Shown here in pieces: positions 56,559 through 60,578 of a DNA stretch of 64,000 bases; position 1 is the first letter of the stretch, and every line of letters starts with the position of its first letter. The notes below the pieces were generated by a model, which worked only from the letters and a program-made list of their open reading frames with translations, had not been told where the DNA came from and did no database searches. A program made the translations under genes and the position numbers. Origin of the DNA: a bacterium (GTDB lineage Bacteria; UBP6; UBA1177; G963667425); the NCBI GenBank assembly GCA_963667425.1, contig OY763407.1, positions 1,281,960 to 1,345,959 of the forward strand, read 5' to 3'.

Positions 56559-57108
56559 GTTCTTCTCCTGTTTTATCACACAATGAACTGTAAATGCAGT
56601 GTCTGCACTTATTTTGATTAACTTCAGCACAAAAACTAAATGGATCAAAGGTCATAATTTTATTAACATGAGAACTAAGCTCTTCAAACTCTGCTTTTGA
56701 AGGTATATCAAGAGCCAATCTTTTTTTATCTATCATTGAAACGAGCTCTAAACTATCTACTTTAAATCCCATTTCTATAAGACAAAAATATTGAGCCCAG
56801 ATCTGATAATAAAAACCCTGATAAACTGTTTTTATCTGCCTTTTATATTCAATAAGATGCTTTGAATCAGGATAGTAAACATCTATTTTTCCAAAAAGTT
56901 TAAGTTTATCTGAAATAACATAAATACCACGCATACCTTTGGCATGAACTGTTGGAGAATCTATCTTTGTATGTGCTGTCTTTCCTTTCTGCTGTGGAGC
57001 CGCTGAAAAAGTCTCAGATTCACCTGAATCAAAAATCTGATGCAGATATATTGAATATGGACAAAAAATAAAATCGTTGAGATAGCTTAAAGGGATATGG
57101 TCATTCAT
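56545..57108 (-). CDS. cas4: CRISPR-associated Cas4 (RecB-like nuclease with C-terminal Cys cluster)
   Basis: N-terminal C (FIFCPYSIY) and a C-terminal C...CRHC...C cluster. Adjacent to and overlapping cas1 and the effector gene, as in V-A loci. Confidence 0.8.
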   Translation of the reverse strand: MNDHIPLSYLNDFIFCPYSIYLHQIFDSGESETFSAAPQQKGKTAHTKIDSPTVHAKGMRGIYVISDKLKLFGKIDVYYPDSKHLIEYKRQIKTVYQGFYYQIWAQYFCLIEMGFKVDSLELVSMIDKKRLALDIPSKAEFEELSSHVNKIMTFDPFSFCAEVNQNKCRHCIYSSLCDKTGEEHVYA

Positions 57109-60100
57109 TTTTTATTTGTTTGTATTGCTAATTCTTTTACATCTGATTCTGAATCAATTTTTCTGACAATGTTAAATGCGGCGAGTGAATCAGGATTATC
57201 AATATCCTTTAGCCAATCCATTTTTTCAGGAATAGATTCTGTGTCAAAACCACAAGAATGATCACATTTCCATGTATGCAATCCCATTTTTGTTTTGTTG
57301 TCTTGTTTTGATATCTGGCAACAATATGGACAAGTTTTACTCGTATTCTTTTCATTGATAAAAATCATTGAACCGAACAGACAGTTATGTTTTTCATCAC
57401 TTTTCCCTCTAATAGCTTCTCTAAGATTAACAATATCTTTAATGTGCGGAGGAACAAGTCCCAGAGATTGGAATTTTTTATATAAGGCGAACTCAAGCTT
57501 TCGAGCAATATGTATGTTATTCTTATTGAATTGATCGTTAATAGATTCTTTTTTTAAATCTTCTAAAAATACATACCCTGGATACTTTTTCTGTAGATGG
57601 CATATTATTCCAACCATATTAGCCACCAACGAATTACGAAGACTATTTATCTGCTCATGAGTGGGAGCATGGAGATTTTCTATTATTATCTCTTTTTTTT
57701 CTGATCTTGCTTGTCTTCTCTTGTTCTCCAAAATTTTAAGGTCTTCCAAGTATTTTTCCAGACTCTCCAGAATATCATTCGGAGTATAACCAATAACATT
57801 TTCCCATTCAGATTTATAAGAAAGCAAAGTTCGACCGTCCTGCGTGTTTTTATCGTTTGTCTCTTGAAAAATTATACTGACATGAAAATCACTGGTTTCT
57901 TTATTGCCATTACGATCATACTTCCGTGTTGACAATTCAATAAAAAATGTATCTTGAAAATCTTTCTGATCTCTATGAAATATTTCATAAATTCGTTTCT
58001 TTGCCACGAGCTTTTGTAGTTTCAAGTAGCTTATTAAATCACCATTTACGACGATTTTATCTTTGATGAGCTTGGCTGCCGACAAATCAAGCGTTGATGT
58101 TGCAAAGTGCTCAAACAGCTCTTCTTTGTCGATAAAGTAAGATGGATTTTTTACAGCATATCGGATTTTATCTTTTTCACTTTCTGTGTCATAAGTCTCT
58201 GTATATTCTAAATTCTTGAGTTTGTACACATCGAATTTCTGAAATTCATATTTGTTAATGCTTTTATTATTTACAGAATATGTTTCTTGCGTCTTTCTTG
58301 TCAAACACAATGTAGCAAGCTCAATTTGTCCGACATCTATGCCATAACGCCATGAAGAATCATAAGGCATTTTTTTTCTGAAGTCTTTGTTAAATTCGTT
58401 AATTTTTGAAAGTTGATCCTCCGGCTTTATAAAACTTAAATCTTCATAAATATTTCCAGCCTGCAAAGCAAAAGCAAAAGCTACAGTAAATTGTTCCTGC
58501 AATCGGCGATGTTTAAAAGACTCAGGGAATCCTTTTGATTCAAAAAAGTGCTTGAGTTCATAGTCCTCTTTCCGATAATTAATTCTCAACTCAGGGTTCA
58601 AACGAACTTCTCCATATTCCGAATTATTTTTTTTACTCCAGAATTGATGCCATATTTTTGTATGAGTTCTGAATTCACTTTGAGGCTCAGATGATTTATT
58701 TCGTTCTTCTAAATCAAAGGATGTAATGTCAAAAACAAGAACACTGTACTTTTCAATAAATTCATCCAGTTGTTCTTTTGAGAAATTATAAGATTTAAAA
58801 TTGTAACAAGCTTTTTCCAGACTTTGTTCAAATGATTTCAGATCTTTTGCTGCTAAACATTCTGACAAATCAAAATTCAAGTCTATACGATCTTTTGTGT
58901 ATTGGTGCTGAATGATCTTTTTATAAAATTTCAGTTTTTTACGGCGCTTTTCCTCAATTTTCTGATCTTTCGAATCATTATCACCTGTTGTTTTCATTGT
59001 TTTTATCTTTTTCTGAGTTTCATACAACTCTTTAAGATTACGCCCGTATTTATTAATATTTTCTATTTTTTTCATCTCTTCAATAAAACTACTTTCTTCT
59101 GCAAAACATAGCTTTTCCAACGCTCGCATGGTTAACGACTGAAGGACAAAGATGTTCCCTTCTTCAGCTTCATTAAATGAACCAACTTCCTTTCTGGCAT
59201 CCATTATTTTTGATATAGGAATAAGCAAGAGCCTAGTTTGAGCAACATCTTTATGGAGCATCGACCAGTATTCTCCCTTCTGCGATTCAAACTTCTGTTT
59301 TTCAAGGTTATTTATTCTTGTTGTTAACTGACCATTTTTTTGAGATATTTCTCTGAATTTACTGCATAGATTGCTGTATCCTTTGAATAGAGCATAATTC
59401 CCCCAAAAGAATTCTTTTAAAGATTTTTTTTCTTTTTTAAGTTTTAACAAGTTATCGAATTCCCCAGATTTATTTAAATTGAACAAAGAGAATTGATTAC
59501 GCAAGCCATTAAGATCTTTTGCTGATTTGTAAACTATCTCTGCATCCCCAATAGACAGTGCTCCATTTTTTGTTTTATACTCTTTATCTTGATCCTTACT
59601 GAAACTATGATTAAGAACCTCATGAAGAATTGATTTCTGGTCTGATTTAAAATTAGCAAGAATTGTGACTGTTTCACCTATTGTTAGCTTGCTCTTATCT
59701 ATCTCGTTCTTTTCTAGATATATATCAAGCCACTCTTTTTCCTGCGTTGTGTTAAATGTAAAGAGAATGGATTTCTGATCTTCATCTTTTTTCAGTTTAT
59801 ACGCATCTAAGTAAGCAAATTTTTTATCCTTTTCCTGCTTAACTTTTTCAATTTCATTATCAAAATACTCTTTGTTTTTTTTGTTTACTGTAAAATAATT
59901 AAAGCTGGCTCGTACCAGTTCTATTCCTGCTGATTGACTTGGTAATGTCTTTTCCTCTAAAAATTGAAGCTCTTCTTTTATTTTAAATAAGTCTATCTTC
60001 AGATCATCTCTTTTCCTGTCGAATAAATACTGGTTCCCTGAAGATAAATTCTCAAGTAATTCAGATAAATAGCCCATAATTTTCTTATTTAATAATGATT

Positions 60101-60578
60101 TAATGGCGTAAGCTATCTCTGATCTTCTTTTTTGTGATTCTTCTGGGCGTTCAGAATAATCTTTCAACTCTTCAGTAAAATACTCCCAATCTTTCAGGCA
60201 ATTCTCAAGTTGCTTTGAAAAGTAGTTTTCATCCTTGTCTTTTAATATCAATTTTGACAGCTTATACTTTTTGGCACGACTACTTTTAGAGTAGGCAATA
60301 AATTCACTTTTATGATGCAGCAAAAGCCAGTTTTTTTTCACCTCTAATCGATCAAACAACTTTTTTTCTTTTTTTCCATCCCCAAGATCTTTGTTGAAGT
60401 ATAGTAAACCATTAAGTTTTCCAGGAATTACTCCCAACTCTTCGACTAACTTTTTAATGTCCACCTCTTTTCCACTTTTCCGTTTCTTGAGCAGTTCTTG
60501 TCCGGAATCATTAATTTCTCCTAGTTTAAACCTGATAGCTCTTGTGTACTGATACTTGTTCATCTCCCCAACACTCAT
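57105..60578 (-). CDS. cas12: Type V CRISPR effector of the Cas12a family: Cas12a-like N-terminus and crRNA-processing region, split RuvC, but a zinc ribbon in place of the Nuc domain (Cas12a2-like / divergent Cas12a)
   Basis: 1157 aa. N-terminus NKYQYTRAIRFKLGE resembles Cas12a (..KTLRFELIP). NYRKEDYELKHFFESKGFPESFKHRR...QFTVAFAFALQ matches the Cas12a WED-III/pre-RuvC region. RuvC-I is YGIDVGQIE (D~748), RuvC-II is YVFLEDLKK (E~1006), RuvC-III is DIDNPDSLAAFNIVRK (~1125-1140). CPYCC...CDHSC (C1083-C1109) lies between RuvC-II and RuvC-III. Confidence 0.85.
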   Translation of the reverse strand: MSVGEMNKYQYTRAIRFKLGEINDSGQELLKKRKSGKEVDIKKLVEELGVIPGKLNGLLYFNKDLGDGKKEKKLFDRLEVKKNWLLLHHKSEFIAYSKSSRAKKYKLSKLILKDKDENYFSKQLENCLKDWEYFTEELKDYSERPEESQKRRSEIAYAIKSLLNKKIMGYLSELLENLSSGNQYLFDRKRDDLKIDLFKIKEELQFLEEKTLPSQSAGIELVRASFNYFTVNKKNKEYFDNEIEKVKQEKDKKFAYLDAYKLKKDEDQKSILFTFNTTQEKEWLDIYLEKNEIDKSKLTIGETVTILANFKSDQKSILHEVLNHSFSKDQDKEYKTKNGALSIGDAEIVYKSAKDLNGLRNQFSLFNLNKSGEFDNLLKLKKEKKSLKEFFWGNYALFKGYSNLCSKFREISQKNGQLTTRINNLEKQKFESQKGEYWSMLHKDVAQTRLLLIPISKIMDARKEVGSFNEAEEGNIFVLQSLTMRALEKLCFAEESSFIEEMKKIENINKYGRNLKELYETQKKIKTMKTTGDNDSKDQKIEEKRRKKLKFYKKIIQHQYTKDRIDLNFDLSECLAAKDLKSFEQSLEKACYNFKSYNFSKEQLDEFIEKYSVLVFDITSFDLEERNKSSEPQSEFRTHTKIWHQFWSKKNNSEYGEVRLNPELRINYRKEDYELKHFFESKGFPESFKHRRLQEQFTVAFAFALQAGNIYEDLSFIKPEDQLSKINEFNKDFRKKMPYDSSWRYGIDVGQIELATLCLTRKTQETYSVNNKSINKYEFQKFDVYKLKNLEYTETYDTESEKDKIRYAVKNPSYFIDKEELFEHFATSTLDLSAAKLIKDKIVVNGDLISYLKLQKLVAKKRIYEIFHRDQKDFQDTFFIELSTRKYDRNGNKETSDFHVSIIFQETNDKNTQDGRTLLSYKSEWENVIGYTPNDILESLEKYLEDLKILENKRRQARSEKKEIIIENLHAPTHEQINSLRNSLVANMVGIICHLQKKYPGYVFLEDLKKESINDQFNKNNIHIARKLEFALYKKFQSLGLVPPHIKDIVNLREAIRGKSDEKHNCLFGSMIFINEKNTSKTCPYCCQISKQDNKTKMGLHTWKCDHSCGFDTESIPEKMDWLKDIDNPDSLAAFNIVRKIDSESDVKELAIQTNKK

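What the first reader, a model, noticed from the sequence alone, without database searches (positions are those of the whole stretch)
57105..60578. Cas12a-type locus whose effector lacks the Nuc domain and carries a zinc ribbon: a compact Cas12a2-like / divergent type V nuclease
The array repeat is unambiguously Cas12a-type, and the locus order (effector-cas4-cas1-cas2-array) is V-A-like. The N-terminus and the pre-RuvC crRNA-processing segment resemble Cas12a. The C-terminal half does not fit canonical Cas12a. About 258 aa separate the RuvC-I Asp (~748) from the RuvC-II Glu (~1006); in Cas12a this gap is roughly 90 aa. Only ~120 aa separate RuvC-II from RuvC-III, and that segment contains a CxxC(C)...CxxxC zinc ribbon (C1083, C1086/7, C1105, C1109; DNA ~57250-57332) where Cas12a has its ~250-aa Nuc domain. 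A zinc ribbon replacing Nuc, with Cas12a-compatible crRNA, is the described hallmark of Cas12a2, the RNA-triggered abortive-infection nucleases. Alternatively this is an undescribed miniature V-A-like subtype. Either way, its target specificity (RNA versus DNA, collateral activity) cannot be assumed to be Cas12a-like.
Basis: partly seen in the sequence, partly recalled or inferred. Interest (0 to 1): 0.85.

Follow-up and report, generated by a model that had tools for sequence, protein, structure and literature searches.

The report
Cas12a3-type CRISPR effector locus
This gene encodes a new member of the recently published Cas12a3 family, CRISPR nucleases that sense invader RNA and then arrest the cell by cutting RNA, typically the 3' tails of tRNAs; it sits on a branch nobody has tested and lacks the tRNA-loading domain seen in the solved structures.

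Summary
ORF 57105-60578(-) encodes a 1157-aa RuvC protein with D748/E1006/D1130, spaced 258 and 124 aa. A conserved CxxC...CxxxC zinc ribbon replaces Nuc. cas4-cas1-cas2 and a 13-spacer array with Cas12a-type repeats follow it.

The protein is neither Cas12a2 nor an undescribed subtype. It belongs to Cas12a3, published in 2026 (Nature PMC12851939; NAR PMC13594972).
- Its only PDB sequence relatives are Cas12a3 structures (E 2e-69; family profile 1e-179).
- Foldseek ranks Cas12a3 (TM 0.62-0.64) above Cas12a2 (0.39) and Cas12a (0.27).
- A bootstrapped tree nests it among named Cas12a3 proteins, closest to the untested BdCas12a3 (36% identity).
- It lacks the loops that carry the Cas12a2 aromatic clamp.

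It also lacks the roughly 106-aa tRNA-loading domain of Ba1/BaCas12a3. About 48 residues stand there, predicted as three beta strands.

The likely function is RNA-triggered, RuvC-mediated RNA-only cleavage that arrests growth. tRNA 3' tails are the probable substrate, because Sm3 and ca23Cas12a3 cut them with even shorter inserts. A broader RNase activity like that of RoiCas12a3 is the main rival.

Verdict: a new member of a known kind, of modest interest.

The parts
57105..60578 (-). cas12a3 effector gene (1157 aa): REC lobe, WED/PI, split RuvC, insertion domain, zinc ribbon
   Evidence: ORF. PDB hits are Cas12a3 only. Foldseek top hits are 21we and 9hlx. Tree placement. dN/dS of 0.18 against the 85%-identical orthologue.
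58335..58337 (-). RuvC-I catalytic Asp (D748)
   Evidence: Invariant. Aligns with Ba1Cas12a3 D712.
57561..57563 (-). RuvC-II catalytic Glu (E1006)
   Evidence: Invariant. Aligns with Ba1Cas12a3 E1032.
57189..57191 (-). RuvC-III catalytic Asp (D1130)
   Evidence: At least 90% conserved and invariant in the 28 sequences. Aligns with Ba1Cas12a3 D1137.
57252..57332 (-). Zinc-ribbon cysteines C1083-x2-C1086(C1087)...C1105-x3-C1109
   Evidence: At least 90% conserved. Same CXXC/CXXXC pattern as the ZR domain described for BaCas12a3. Aligned. Weak Pfam TNB hit.
57804..57956 (-). Residues 875-925: short beta-strand module at the position where Ba1/BaCas12a3 carry the tRNA-loading domain
   Evidence: 48 residues (875-922) fall in the 106 columns of Ba1 tRLD residues 855-960. 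AF2 predicts strands 879-888, 891-903 and 915-921. Insert lengths across the family. dN/dS of 0.23 for residues 875-970.
57675..57722 (-). Residues 953-968: 16-aa basic insertion (ILENKRRQARSEKKEI) in the helix before RuvC-II, found in the window protein and P0004 but in none of the other sequences aligned
   Evidence: Alignments. pLDDT below 50 at residues 962-968.
56545..57108 (-). cas4 (187 aa), type V; its start overlaps the cas12a3 stop by 4 nt
   Evidence: TIGR04328 cas4_PREFRAN, E 1.1e-60.
55587..56648 (-). cas1 (up to 353 aa; the true start is probably downstream of the TTG at 56648)
   Evidence: TIGR04329 cas1_PREFRAN, E 5.9e-110, with the match starting at residue 36.
55297..55590 (-). 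cas2 (97 aa)
   Evidence: PF09827 at 3.3e-14 and TIGR01573 at 2.3e-11.
55073..55296 (-). AT-rich leader between cas2 and the first repeat
   Evidence: Sequence. Polarity is inferred from the degenerate repeat at the far end. The promoter scan was uninformative.
54216..55072 (-). CRISPR array: 13 repeats of 36 nt (12 identical, 1 with one substitution; ATCTATGGAAACACCATAATTTCTACTGTTGTAGAT), 13 spacers of 25-28 nt, and a degenerate terminal repeat at 54216-54253
   Evidence: The same ...AATTTCTACTNTTGTAGAT repeat end occurs in the 19 related loci whose repeats were extracted, including Sm3, Ba, Ch, Fe and BdCas12a3.

Best explanation
This is a complete, apparently functional type V CRISPR-Cas system whose effector belongs to the Cas12a3 clade. 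It sits on the untested BdCas12a3-like branch.

Proposed mechanism:
1. Cas4-Cas1-Cas2 acquire spacers. This is inferred.
2. The array is transcribed from the cas2-proximal leader. The effector processes it into crRNAs with a 19-nt 5' handle (AAUUUCUACUGUUGUAGAU) followed by the spacer. This is inferred from BaCas12a3 and from the identical handle.
3. The crRNA pairs with a complementary invader transcript that carries a purine-rich 3' flanking sequence. Pairing opens the autoinhibited RuvC site (D748/E1006/D1130). This is inferred from Ba1 and BaCas12a3.
4. The activated RuvC cleaves cellular RNA in trans but not DNA, which stops translation and growth without an SOS response. I put the probability at about 0.8.
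5. The preferred substrate is most probably the 3' CCA tail and acceptor end of tRNAs. I put the probability at about 0.55.

The way the substrate is positioned must differ from Ba1/BaCas12a3, because the alpha/beta tRNA-loading domain is replaced here by a short three-strand module.

What is shown: family membership, intact catalytic and zinc-ribbon motifs, locus completeness and purifying selection. The biochemical steps are inferred from characterised relatives that are 26-29% identical.
For: Family membership:
- phmmer against the PDB finds only Cas12a3 chains: 21we at E 2e-69 and 9hlx at 7e-61.
- The family profile scores 1.3e-179 and 1e-157 over the full length, against 1.8e-23 over part of SuCas12a2. 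It finds no Cas12a.
- The AF2 model has pLDDT 77.5. Foldseek gives BaCas12a3 E 2.6e-45 and TM 0.62, Ba1Cas12a3 TM 0.64, Cas12a2 TM 0.39 and Cas12a about 0.27.
- BLASTP gives BdCas12a3 36% identity and 624 bits over the full length. It gives Rb2 316, Ba 275 and Sm3 267 bits. It gives Ba3Cas12a2 77, ApCas12a4 62 and MpCas12a2 44 bits, and LbCas12a is not significant.
- NJ tree of 175 sequences with 100 bootstraps: the window protein sits in a 7-member clade (support 100), inside a 44-member clade with BdCas12a3 (86), inside a 65-member clade (90). All of this lies within the Cas12a3 group, and ApCas12a4 and the Cas12a2 proteins fall outside (83).
- Related genomic loci include the published Cas12a3 contigs.

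Functionality:
- The DED triad and the zinc-ribbon cysteines are conserved.
- dN/dS is 0.18 against an 85%-identical orthologue.
- The cas12a3-cas4-cas1-cas2-array module is conserved in relatives.
- No spacer is shared with the closest relative.

RNA-only cleavage:
- The loops after RuvC-II that carry the Cas12a2 clamp residues Y1069/Y1080/F1092 are absent. The paper links their absence to the lack of DNA collateral cleavage.

tRNA tails:
- Ba1, Ba, Sm3 and ca23Cas12a3 all trim tRNA 3' ends.
- Sm3 and ca23 (about equal to P0141) do so with inserts of only 92-93 aa. The window protein has 130 and tRLD-bearing proteins have 157-179.
- Tested tail-cutters fall in two of the three major Cas12a3 groups, and those groups bracket the window's clade.
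Against: - No member of the 65-sequence branch that holds the window protein has been tested. BdCas12a3 appears only in the paper's table and FASTA file.
- The Ba1 residues that contact the tRNA tail either fall in alignment gaps (K881, K885, Y922, N924) or are replaced (R902 to T907). The REC2 T-arm loop R251/N253/K256/K257 is not conserved.
- RoiCas12a3, which lacks the tRLD, cleaves its target RNA and shows strong general collateral RNase activity.
- The backbone nodes of my tree are weak (support 52 and 16), so the phylogenetic bracketing is tentative.
- No protospacer was found, so RNA targeting could not be checked from target-strand bias.
- The AF2 pTM is only 0.45, and I had no model coordinates. 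The position of the beta module relative to the RuvC site is therefore inferred from sequence order only.
Confidence: 0.6

Rival explanations
1. It is a Cas12a3-clade effector that behaves like RoiCas12a3. After RNA recognition it cuts its target RNA and degrades RNA broadly in trans, with no special preference for tRNA tails. Growth arrest comes from general RNA loss.
For: The Bacteroidota-type tRLD, which the NAR paper calls the key determinant of tRNA-directed activity, is missing. Its contact residues and the REC2 T-arm loop are not conserved. RoiCas12a3/Rb2Cas12a3 scores higher against the window protein (316 bits) than any of the proteins shown to cut tRNA tails.
Against: Sm3 and ca23Cas12a3 have even shorter inserts, yet they trim tRNA tails and cleave their target only poorly. 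The window clade keeps a conserved extra module of about 40 aa at this site, and that module is under purifying selection. This suggests a substrate-handling role rather than an open groove.
Confidence: 0.27
2. One reading: a Cas12a2-type nuclease that shreds ssRNA, ssDNA and dsDNA after RNA recognition and kills through DNA damage.
For: It shares the overall architecture: a zinc ribbon instead of Nuc, an insertion domain instead of the bridge helix, and a Cas12a-type crRNA. Cas12a2 structures are the second-best fold matches.
Against: Sequence, profile, fold and tree evidence all place it in Cas12a3 and well away from Cas12a2. The segments after RuvC-II that hold three of the four aromatic-clamp residues needed for dsDNA collateral cleavage are deleted. 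Tested Cas12a3 proteins cleave RNA only and give no SOS response.
Confidence: 0.05
3. It is a divergent but conventional Cas12a (type V-A) that recognises a PAM and cuts double-stranded DNA.
For: The repeat is of Cas12a type and the V-A-type adaptation genes are present. PADLOC HMMs named 'Cas12a' match over the full length at E 1e-164.
Against: There is no Nuc domain. RuvC spacing is 258/124 against 93/255 in LbCas12a. Pfam and NCBIfam Cas12a models give no match. BLAST to LbCas12a is not significant, and TM to Cas12a structures is about 0.27. The PADLOC models evidently include Cas12a3-like sequences.
Confidence: 0.02
4. It is a decaying or domesticated locus with no nuclease-based immunity.
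For: No protospacers were found for any spacer. There are only 13 spacers.
Against: The ORFs are intact, the catalytic triad and zinc ribbon are intact, and dN/dS is 0.18. The repeats are essentially identical (12 of 13 identical, one with a single substitution) and there is a full adaptation module. Lack of spacer matches is normal for Cas12a3 arrays: two virus matches among 525 spacers in the NAR study.
Confidence: 0.03

Closest known systems
BdCas12a3 (uncultured Bdellovibrionales SP5OBV1; listed but not tested in Dmytrenko et al., Nature 2026)
   Same: It is the closest named relative: 36% identity over the full length and the same well-supported clade. It has the same gene order, the same repeat end (...AAATTTCTACTGTTGTAGAT) and no Bacteroidota-type tRLD.
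   Different: Identity is only 36%. Bd has a longer RuvC-II to RuvC-III segment (148 aa against 124) and a shorter insert at the tRLD site (111 aa against 130). It lacks the 16-aa basic insertion at residues 953-968.
Ba1Cas12a3 / BaCas12a3 (PDB 9hlx, 9hm4-6, 21we, 21wj): RNA-triggered tRNA CCA-tail nucleases
   Same: Best sequence and fold matches among solved structures. Same domain order, the same DED triad, the same CXXC/CXXXC zinc ribbon, the same crRNA handle and the same adaptation genes.
   Different: About 26% identity. The roughly 106-aa alpha/beta tRNA-loading domain is replaced by about 48 residues predicted as three beta strands. The tail-contact residues and the REC2 T-arm loop are not conserved. 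RuvC I-II is 258 aa against 319-320.
Sm3Cas12a3 and ca23Cas12a3 (tested tRNA-tail cutters with short inserts)
   Same: Cas12a3 members without the large tRLD. They show that tail cleavage does not need it. Sm3 is 29% identical to the window protein.
   Different: They belong to other sub-branches, and their inserts are about 38 aa shorter. Sm3 cuts slightly further upstream and strictly needs both cytosines.
RoiCas12a3 (presumably Rb2Cas12a3): tRLD-less, target-cutting, broad collateral RNase
   Same: Cas12a3 clade and no tRLD. Rb2Cas12a3 is 29% identical over 1129 aa.
   Different: It belongs to another sub-branch and has a 90-aa insert against 130. Its zinc ribbon is expanded with extra cysteines.
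Cas12a2 (SuCas12a2, PDB 8d49/8d4a/8d4b; MpCas12a2)
   Same: RNA-triggered abortive-infection logic, a zinc ribbon instead of Nuc, an insertion domain instead of the bridge helix, and a shared crRNA type.
   Different: Distant in sequence and fold. The window protein lacks the aromatic-clamp loops, so dsDNA shredding is not expected.
Cas12a (type V-A, e.g. LbCas12a)
   Same: The repeat and crRNA handle, and V-A-type cas4/cas1/cas2. The WED/pre-RuvC motif is collinear, HT..W..(V/I)RLN...GID.G.
   Different: No Nuc domain, a different REC lobe, no significant pairwise similarity and RuvC spacing of 93/255.
Cas12a4 (ApCas12a4)
   Same: A sister clade that is RNA-triggered and cleaves RNA only.
   Different: Only the C-terminal 196 aa align, at 62 bits. 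It falls outside the Cas12a3 group in the tree.

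Membership tests
Cas12a3 | Phylogenetic placement inside the Cas12a3 clade, separate from Cas12a, Cas12a2 and Cas12a4 | tested here: met
   NJ tree with 100 bootstraps nests it among named Cas12a3 proteins (Bd, Sm3, Ba1, Ba, Ch, Fe, Rb2, MG60_9). 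ApCas12a4 and the Cas12a2 proteins fall outside, with support 83. BLAST, profile and fold rankings agree. Caveat: this is a distance tree with only one Cas12a4 and two Cas12a2 references.
Cas12a3 | Intact split RuvC catalytic triad (D/E/D) | tested here: met
   D748/E1006/D1130 align with Ba1 D712/E1032/D1137 and are invariant in 28 sequences.
Cas12a3 | Zinc-ribbon domain (CXXC...CXXXC) between RuvC-II and RuvC-III in place of Nuc | tested here: met
   C1083, C1086, C1105 and C1109 are at least 90% conserved and are aligned to the Ba1/Ba zinc ribbon. The II-III gap is 124 aa, against 255 in LbCas12a. Metal binding itself was not tested.
Cas12a3 | Large insertion domain between RuvC-I and RuvC-II instead of a bridge helix | tested here: met
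   258 aa, against 93 in LbCas12a and 215-324 in the other Cas12a3 proteins aligned.
Cas12a3 | Absence of the Cas12a2 aromatic-clamp regions | tested here: met
   The loop from RuvC-II to the next helix is about 20 aa shorter than in Mp/Ba3Cas12a2, and it lacks the segments where Su Y1069/Y1080/F1092 lie. The fourth clamp residue, the REC residue Y465, was not mapped.
Cas12a3 | Cas12a-type repeat with the 5'-handle stem-loop, and adjacent cas4-cas1-cas2 | tested here: met
Cas12a3 | tRNA-loading domain (tRLD; Ba1 residues 855-960). This defines the tRLD-bearing subgroup, about 35% of homologues, and not the whole clade. | tested here: not met
   Only 48 residues occupy the 106 tRLD columns. K881/K885/Y922/N924 fall in gaps and R902 aligns with T907. 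AF2 shows three strands and no helices there. Sm3, ca23 and Rb2 also lack it.
Cas12a3 | [quoted passage not shown] | not testable with these tools
   This needs biochemistry. It is inferred from relatives.
Cas12a2 | Clade membership and the aromatic clamps that enable dsDNA collateral cleavage | tested here: not met
Cas12a (V-A) | Nuc domain, bridge helix, and matches to the Cas12a family models | tested here: not met
   No Pfam or NCBIfam Cas12a hit. Spacing is 258/124 against 93/255. TM is about 0.27. PADLOC models named 'Cas12a' do match, but they evidently cover Cas12a3-like sequences.
Cas12a4 | Clade membership | tested here: not met
   62 bits over the C-terminal part only, against ApCas12a4. 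ApCas12a4 falls outside the clade in the tree. Only one Cas12a4 reference was used.

The most novel reading that the evidence does not exclude
The window protein and its six closest relatives may be a functionally distinct Cas12a3 lineage. Possibly the whole untested Bd-like branch of about 65 cluster representatives is. In this lineage a compact three-strand module plus a basic helix extension would replace the tRNA-loading domain. That would give a different RNA substrate, a different cut site, or a different mode of tRNA recognition from Ba1, Sm3 and Roi. It would be a further programmable RNase specificity within the same scaffold.
Probability: 0.25. Interest if true: 0.6.

Novelty: new member of a known kind. 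Interest (0 to 1): 0.35.

Why it matters
The practical points:
1. Annotation hazard. Loci like this one are labelled 'hypothetical protein', as its 85%-identical relative is in NCBI. Defence-typing HMMs would label them 'Cas12a / V-A'. Yet they are expected to target RNA and arrest the host, not cut DNA.
2. Family size. The family is much larger than the 61 orthologues published for Cas12a3 and Cas12a4 together. The profile finds 460 representatives at 50% identity with E<=1e-3, and 248 with E<=1e-30. These counts will include some Cas12a2 and Cas12a4.
3. An untested branch. The deep branch that holds this protein has no tested member and carries an intermediate-sized module at the site that controls substrate choice. 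Published data already show that changes there switch between tRNA-tail trimming and broad RNase activity. This protein is therefore a sensible candidate for testing how substrate specificity evolves, and for finding orthogonal reporter specificities for multiplexed RNA detection.

It does not open a new category.

Tried and rejected
- Canonical Cas12a: rejected. There are no Pfam or NCBIfam Cas12a hits, BLAST to LbCas12a is not significant, and TM is about 0.27.
- Cas12a2: rejected, as set out under the rival explanations.
- Cas12a4: rejected.
- Already in the Nature paper's sequence set? No. Four peptides gave no match in the supplements, and no listed contig fits.
- Source record: the look-up of encoding contigs returned nothing. 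The cluster look-up shows only that the exact protein exists in NCBI/ENA, unnamed, on a 2.95-Mb contig. The closest relatives are an unclassified 'MAG: bacterium' (85%) and Lentisphaeria UBA7640 (57%).
- Protospacers:
  - no self-targets in the window at up to 5 mismatches, and none in the 53 related loci at up to 4;
  - no significant hit for the 13 concatenated spacers in 50,697 phage records (best E 0.5);
  - seven exact 22-nt scans of IMG/VR returned nothing.
  Target-strand bias and the flanking sequence could therefore not be assessed.
- Promoter and terminator scan of the locus: no enrichment over shuffles, so it was uninformative.
- Rfam: only one tRNA in the window, and nothing at the locus.
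- Cas12a crRNA-processing residues: I could not place them reliably from memory. I report only the collinear motif.
- Accessory genes: the TPR-DUF3800 genes reported next to about 40% of cas12a3 operons were not seen among the flanking ORFs that gave family hits. Several short flanking ORFs gave no hit in any library.
- 3D position of the beta module relative to the RuvC site: not checked, because model coordinates are not exposed.

Full report
**Observation**

The flagged interval is one ORF, 57105..60578 on the minus strand, encoding 1157 aa. Three genes follow it on the same strand:
- cas4 at 56545-57108;
- cas1 at 55587-56648;
- cas2 at 55297-55590.

cas4 and cas1 match the type V (PREFRAN) NCBIfam models at E 1e-60 and 6e-110.

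After a 224-nt AT-rich leader comes the CRISPR array. It has 13 repeats of 36 nt (12 identical, one with a single substitution), 13 spacers of 25-28 nt, and a degenerate 14th repeat at 54216-54253. On the gene strand the repeat is ATCTATGGAAACACCATAATTTCTACTGTTGTAGAT. Its 3' part folds into the UCUAC-UGUU-GUAGA stem-loop typical of Cas12a crRNAs.

In an alignment of 18 homologues, D748 and E1006 are invariant. D1130 and C1083, C1086, C1105 and C1109 are at least 90% conserved. The RuvC I-II and II-III gaps are 258 and 124 aa, against 93 and 255 in LbCas12a. Pfam and NCBIfam Cas12a models do not match. The only Pfam hit is a weak Cas12f1-like zinc-ribbon (TNB) match at residues 1070-1112.

**What it is**

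Sequence search:
- A phmmer search of all PDB chains returned only two real hits: 'BaCas12a3' (21we, E 2e-69) and 'Ba1Cas12a3' (9hlx, E 7e-61). No Cas12a or Cas12a2 chain reached E<=1.
- A profile built from the homologues scored 1.3e-179 and 1e-157 over the full length of these two chains. It scored 1.8e-23 over part of SuCas12a2 and found no Cas12a.

Fold search:
- An AlphaFold2 model (mean pLDDT 77.5, pTM 0.45) was searched against the PDB with Foldseek.
- BaCas12a3 and Ba1Cas12a3 binary complexes came first (E 2.6e-45 and 5.9e-43, TM 0.62 and 0.64).
- Cas12a2 followed (E 1.9e-24, TM 0.39), then Cas12a (E 8e-13 or weaker, TM about 0.27).

Literature. Cas12a3 was described in January 2026 by Dmytrenko et al. 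(Nature, PMC12851939) and in September 2026 by Li et al. (NAR, PMC13594972). These are type V effectors related to Cas12a2. A complementary RNA activates them, and they then cleave RNA but not DNA. [quoted passage not shown]

Named relatives:
- A scan of species-representative genomes with the family alignment returned 53 loci. Several are contigs listed in the paper's table: BdCas12a3, Sm3Cas12a3, Ba1Cas12a3, ChCas12a3, FeCas12a3 and four accession-named Cas12a3 proteins.
Their lengths match the paper's table.
- BLASTP of the window protein gave the following:
  - BdCas12a3: 36% identity, 624 bits, full length;
  - Rb2Cas12a3: 316 bits;
  - BaCas12a3: 275 bits;
  - MG60_9Cas12a3: 268 bits;
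  - Sm3Cas12a3: 267 bits;
  - Ba3Cas12a2: 77 bits;
  - ApCas12a4: 62 bits, C-terminal part only;
  - MpCas12a2: 44 bits;
  - LbCas12a: not significant.

Tree. I built a neighbour-joining tree of 175 full-length sequences on 936 columns with 100 bootstraps:
- The window protein sits in a 7-member clade (support 100).
- That clade lies inside a 44-member clade with BdCas12a3 (86), which lies inside a 65-member clade (90).
- All of this lies within the Cas12a3 assemblage. ApCas12a4 and the Cas12a2 proteins fall outside (83).

The window protein itself is not in the paper's set. In public databases the exact sequence is unnamed, and its 85% relative is annotated 'hypothetical protein'.

**Distinction from Cas12a2**

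Cas12a2 degrades dsDNA using two aromatic clamps, Y465/Y1080 and Y1069/F1092. Three of these four residues lie 6-29 residues after RuvC-II E1063.

In a C-terminal alignment, Mp and Ba3Cas12a2 carry extra segments after RuvC-II. The window protein lacks them, as do all the Cas12a3 proteins aligned. This matches the paper's statement that Cas12a3 lacks these regions entirely. DNA shredding is therefore not expected.

**The substrate-loading site**

In Ba1 and BaCas12a3 a domain of about 106 aa (Ba1 residues 855-960) clamps the tRNA tail against RuvC. It has three beta strands and four helices and is called the tRLD. Deleting it abolishes tRNA cleavage.

In my alignments the window protein has only 48 residues in those columns:
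- Contact residues K881, K885, Y922 and N924 fall in gaps, and R902 aligns with T907.
- The REC2 T-arm loop is not conserved.
- AlphaFold2 predicts three beta strands here (879-888, 891-903, 915-921) and no helices.

I measured the insert between two conserved anchors, NGD at 845-847 and INxLR at 977-981:
- 157-179 aa in tRLD-bearing proteins;
- 128-131 aa in the window's 7-member clade;
- 111 aa in BdCas12a3;
- 92-93 aa in Sm3 and in P0141, which is 97% identical to the ca23 N-terminus;
- 90 aa in Rb2.

The window protein and P0004 also carry a 16-aa basic insertion (about residues 953-968) in the helix before RuvC-II.

Li et al. report that only about 35% of Cas12a3 homologues carry the extra domain. 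They also report that RoiCas12a3, which lacks it, cleaves its target RNA and shows strong general collateral RNase activity. In contrast, Dmytrenko et al. show that Sm3 and ca23Cas12a3 still trim tRNA 3' ends and cleave their target poorly. In my alignment these two also lack the large domain. Absence of the tRLD therefore does not decide the substrate.

**Is it functional?**

- dN/dS against the 85%-identical orthologue in L001 is 0.18 for the whole gene and 0.23 for residues 875-970.
- The cas12a3-cas4-cas1-cas2-array module is conserved as a unit in relatives, while the flanking genes differ.
- The arrays share no spacers.
- The 19 related loci whose repeats I extracted all keep the AATTTCTACTNTTGTAGAT repeat end.
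- The window holds no second Cas12 gene. The large ORFs elsewhere encode BamA, TamB, a protease and other housekeeping functions of a diderm bacterium.

**Mechanism proposed**

I propose the following sequence:
1. Cas4-Cas1-Cas2 acquire spacers.
2. The effector processes the pre-crRNA to a 19-nt handle plus spacer, as shown for BaCas12a3.
3. The crRNA pairs with an invader transcript that carries a purine-rich 3' flank.
4. A conformational change exposes D748/E1006/D1130.
5. RuvC cleaves RNA in trans, most probably tRNA 3' tails, and stalls translation.

Family membership, motif integrity and selection are shown here. Everything biochemical is inferred from relatives at 26-29% identity, and no member of this branch has been tested. 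My estimates are about 0.93 for membership, about 0.8 for RNA-triggered RNA-only cleavage, and about 0.55 for tRNA tails as the preferred substrate.

**What failed**

No protospacer was found in the window, in related loci, in 50,697 phage records or in IMG/VR. This is in line with the very low match rate reported for Cas12a3 spacers. The source organism could not be named.

**Verdict**

The finding is real, and it was correctly recognised as non-canonical. It is not Cas12a2, and it is no longer undescribed. It is a new, unannotated member of the published Cas12a3 family. It lies on a deep, untested branch with an unusual short module at the substrate-loading site. Interest is modest. The remaining open question is the substrate specificity of this branch.

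Noticed in passing
window 54094-54194: A 21-nt tandem repeat (about 4.8 copies, consensus CTCAGCTTCTTTAGTTTAAGC) lies directly beyond the degenerate terminal CRISPR repeat. No ORF of 60 aa or more covers it, and its role is unknown.
   Followed up: no
window 62269-63939 (-): A 556-aa cysteine-rich protein with three internal repeats, each beginning C..GKVCGxDGCGGxCGTCG. It has no hit in Pfam, NCBIfam or PADLOC and is probably a secreted repeat protein.
   Followed up: partly
window 2602-5466 (-): A 954-aa protein combines a TLC ATP/ADP-transporter domain with HEAT repeats. The window also has 34% GC and BamA/TamB genes. Together these hint at a host-associated or energy-parasitic diderm bacterium.
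   Followed up: no
window 57105-60578 (effector) against PADLOC models PDLC01232 and PDLC01230: Defence-typing HMMs named 'Cas12a' (one described as 'CAS-V-A; effector') match this Cas12a3 protein over its full length at E 1e-164 and 1e-160. Pfam and NCBIfam Cas12a models do not match at all. Automated pipelines are therefore likely to mislabel such RNA-targeting effectors as DNA-cutting Cas12a.
   Followed up: partly
window 55587-56648 (-), cas1: The longest cas1 ORF starts at a TTG about 100 nt inside cas4, but the Cas1 model match begins at residue 36. The real start is probably further downstream.
   Followed up: no
L001 (JBMNFX010000001.1), L002 (DLIO01000053.1) and other loci: The cas12a3-cas4-cas1-cas2-array module is conserved as a block, but none of the window's flanking genes appear next to it, even in the 85%-identical relative. 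No spacers are shared. Relatives occur in very different lineages, including Bdellovibrionales, Lentisphaeria, Woesearchaeota, Patescibacteria and Spirochaetia, which suggests horizontal transfer of the whole module.
   Followed up: partly
protein representative library: The family profile finds 460 cluster representatives at 50% identity with E<=1e-3, and 248 with E<=1e-30. That is far more than the 61 Cas12a3 and Cas12a4 orthologues in the founding paper. Some representatives exceed 1400 aa and one is 1736 aa (P0046), which may mean fusions or extra domains.
   Followed up: no
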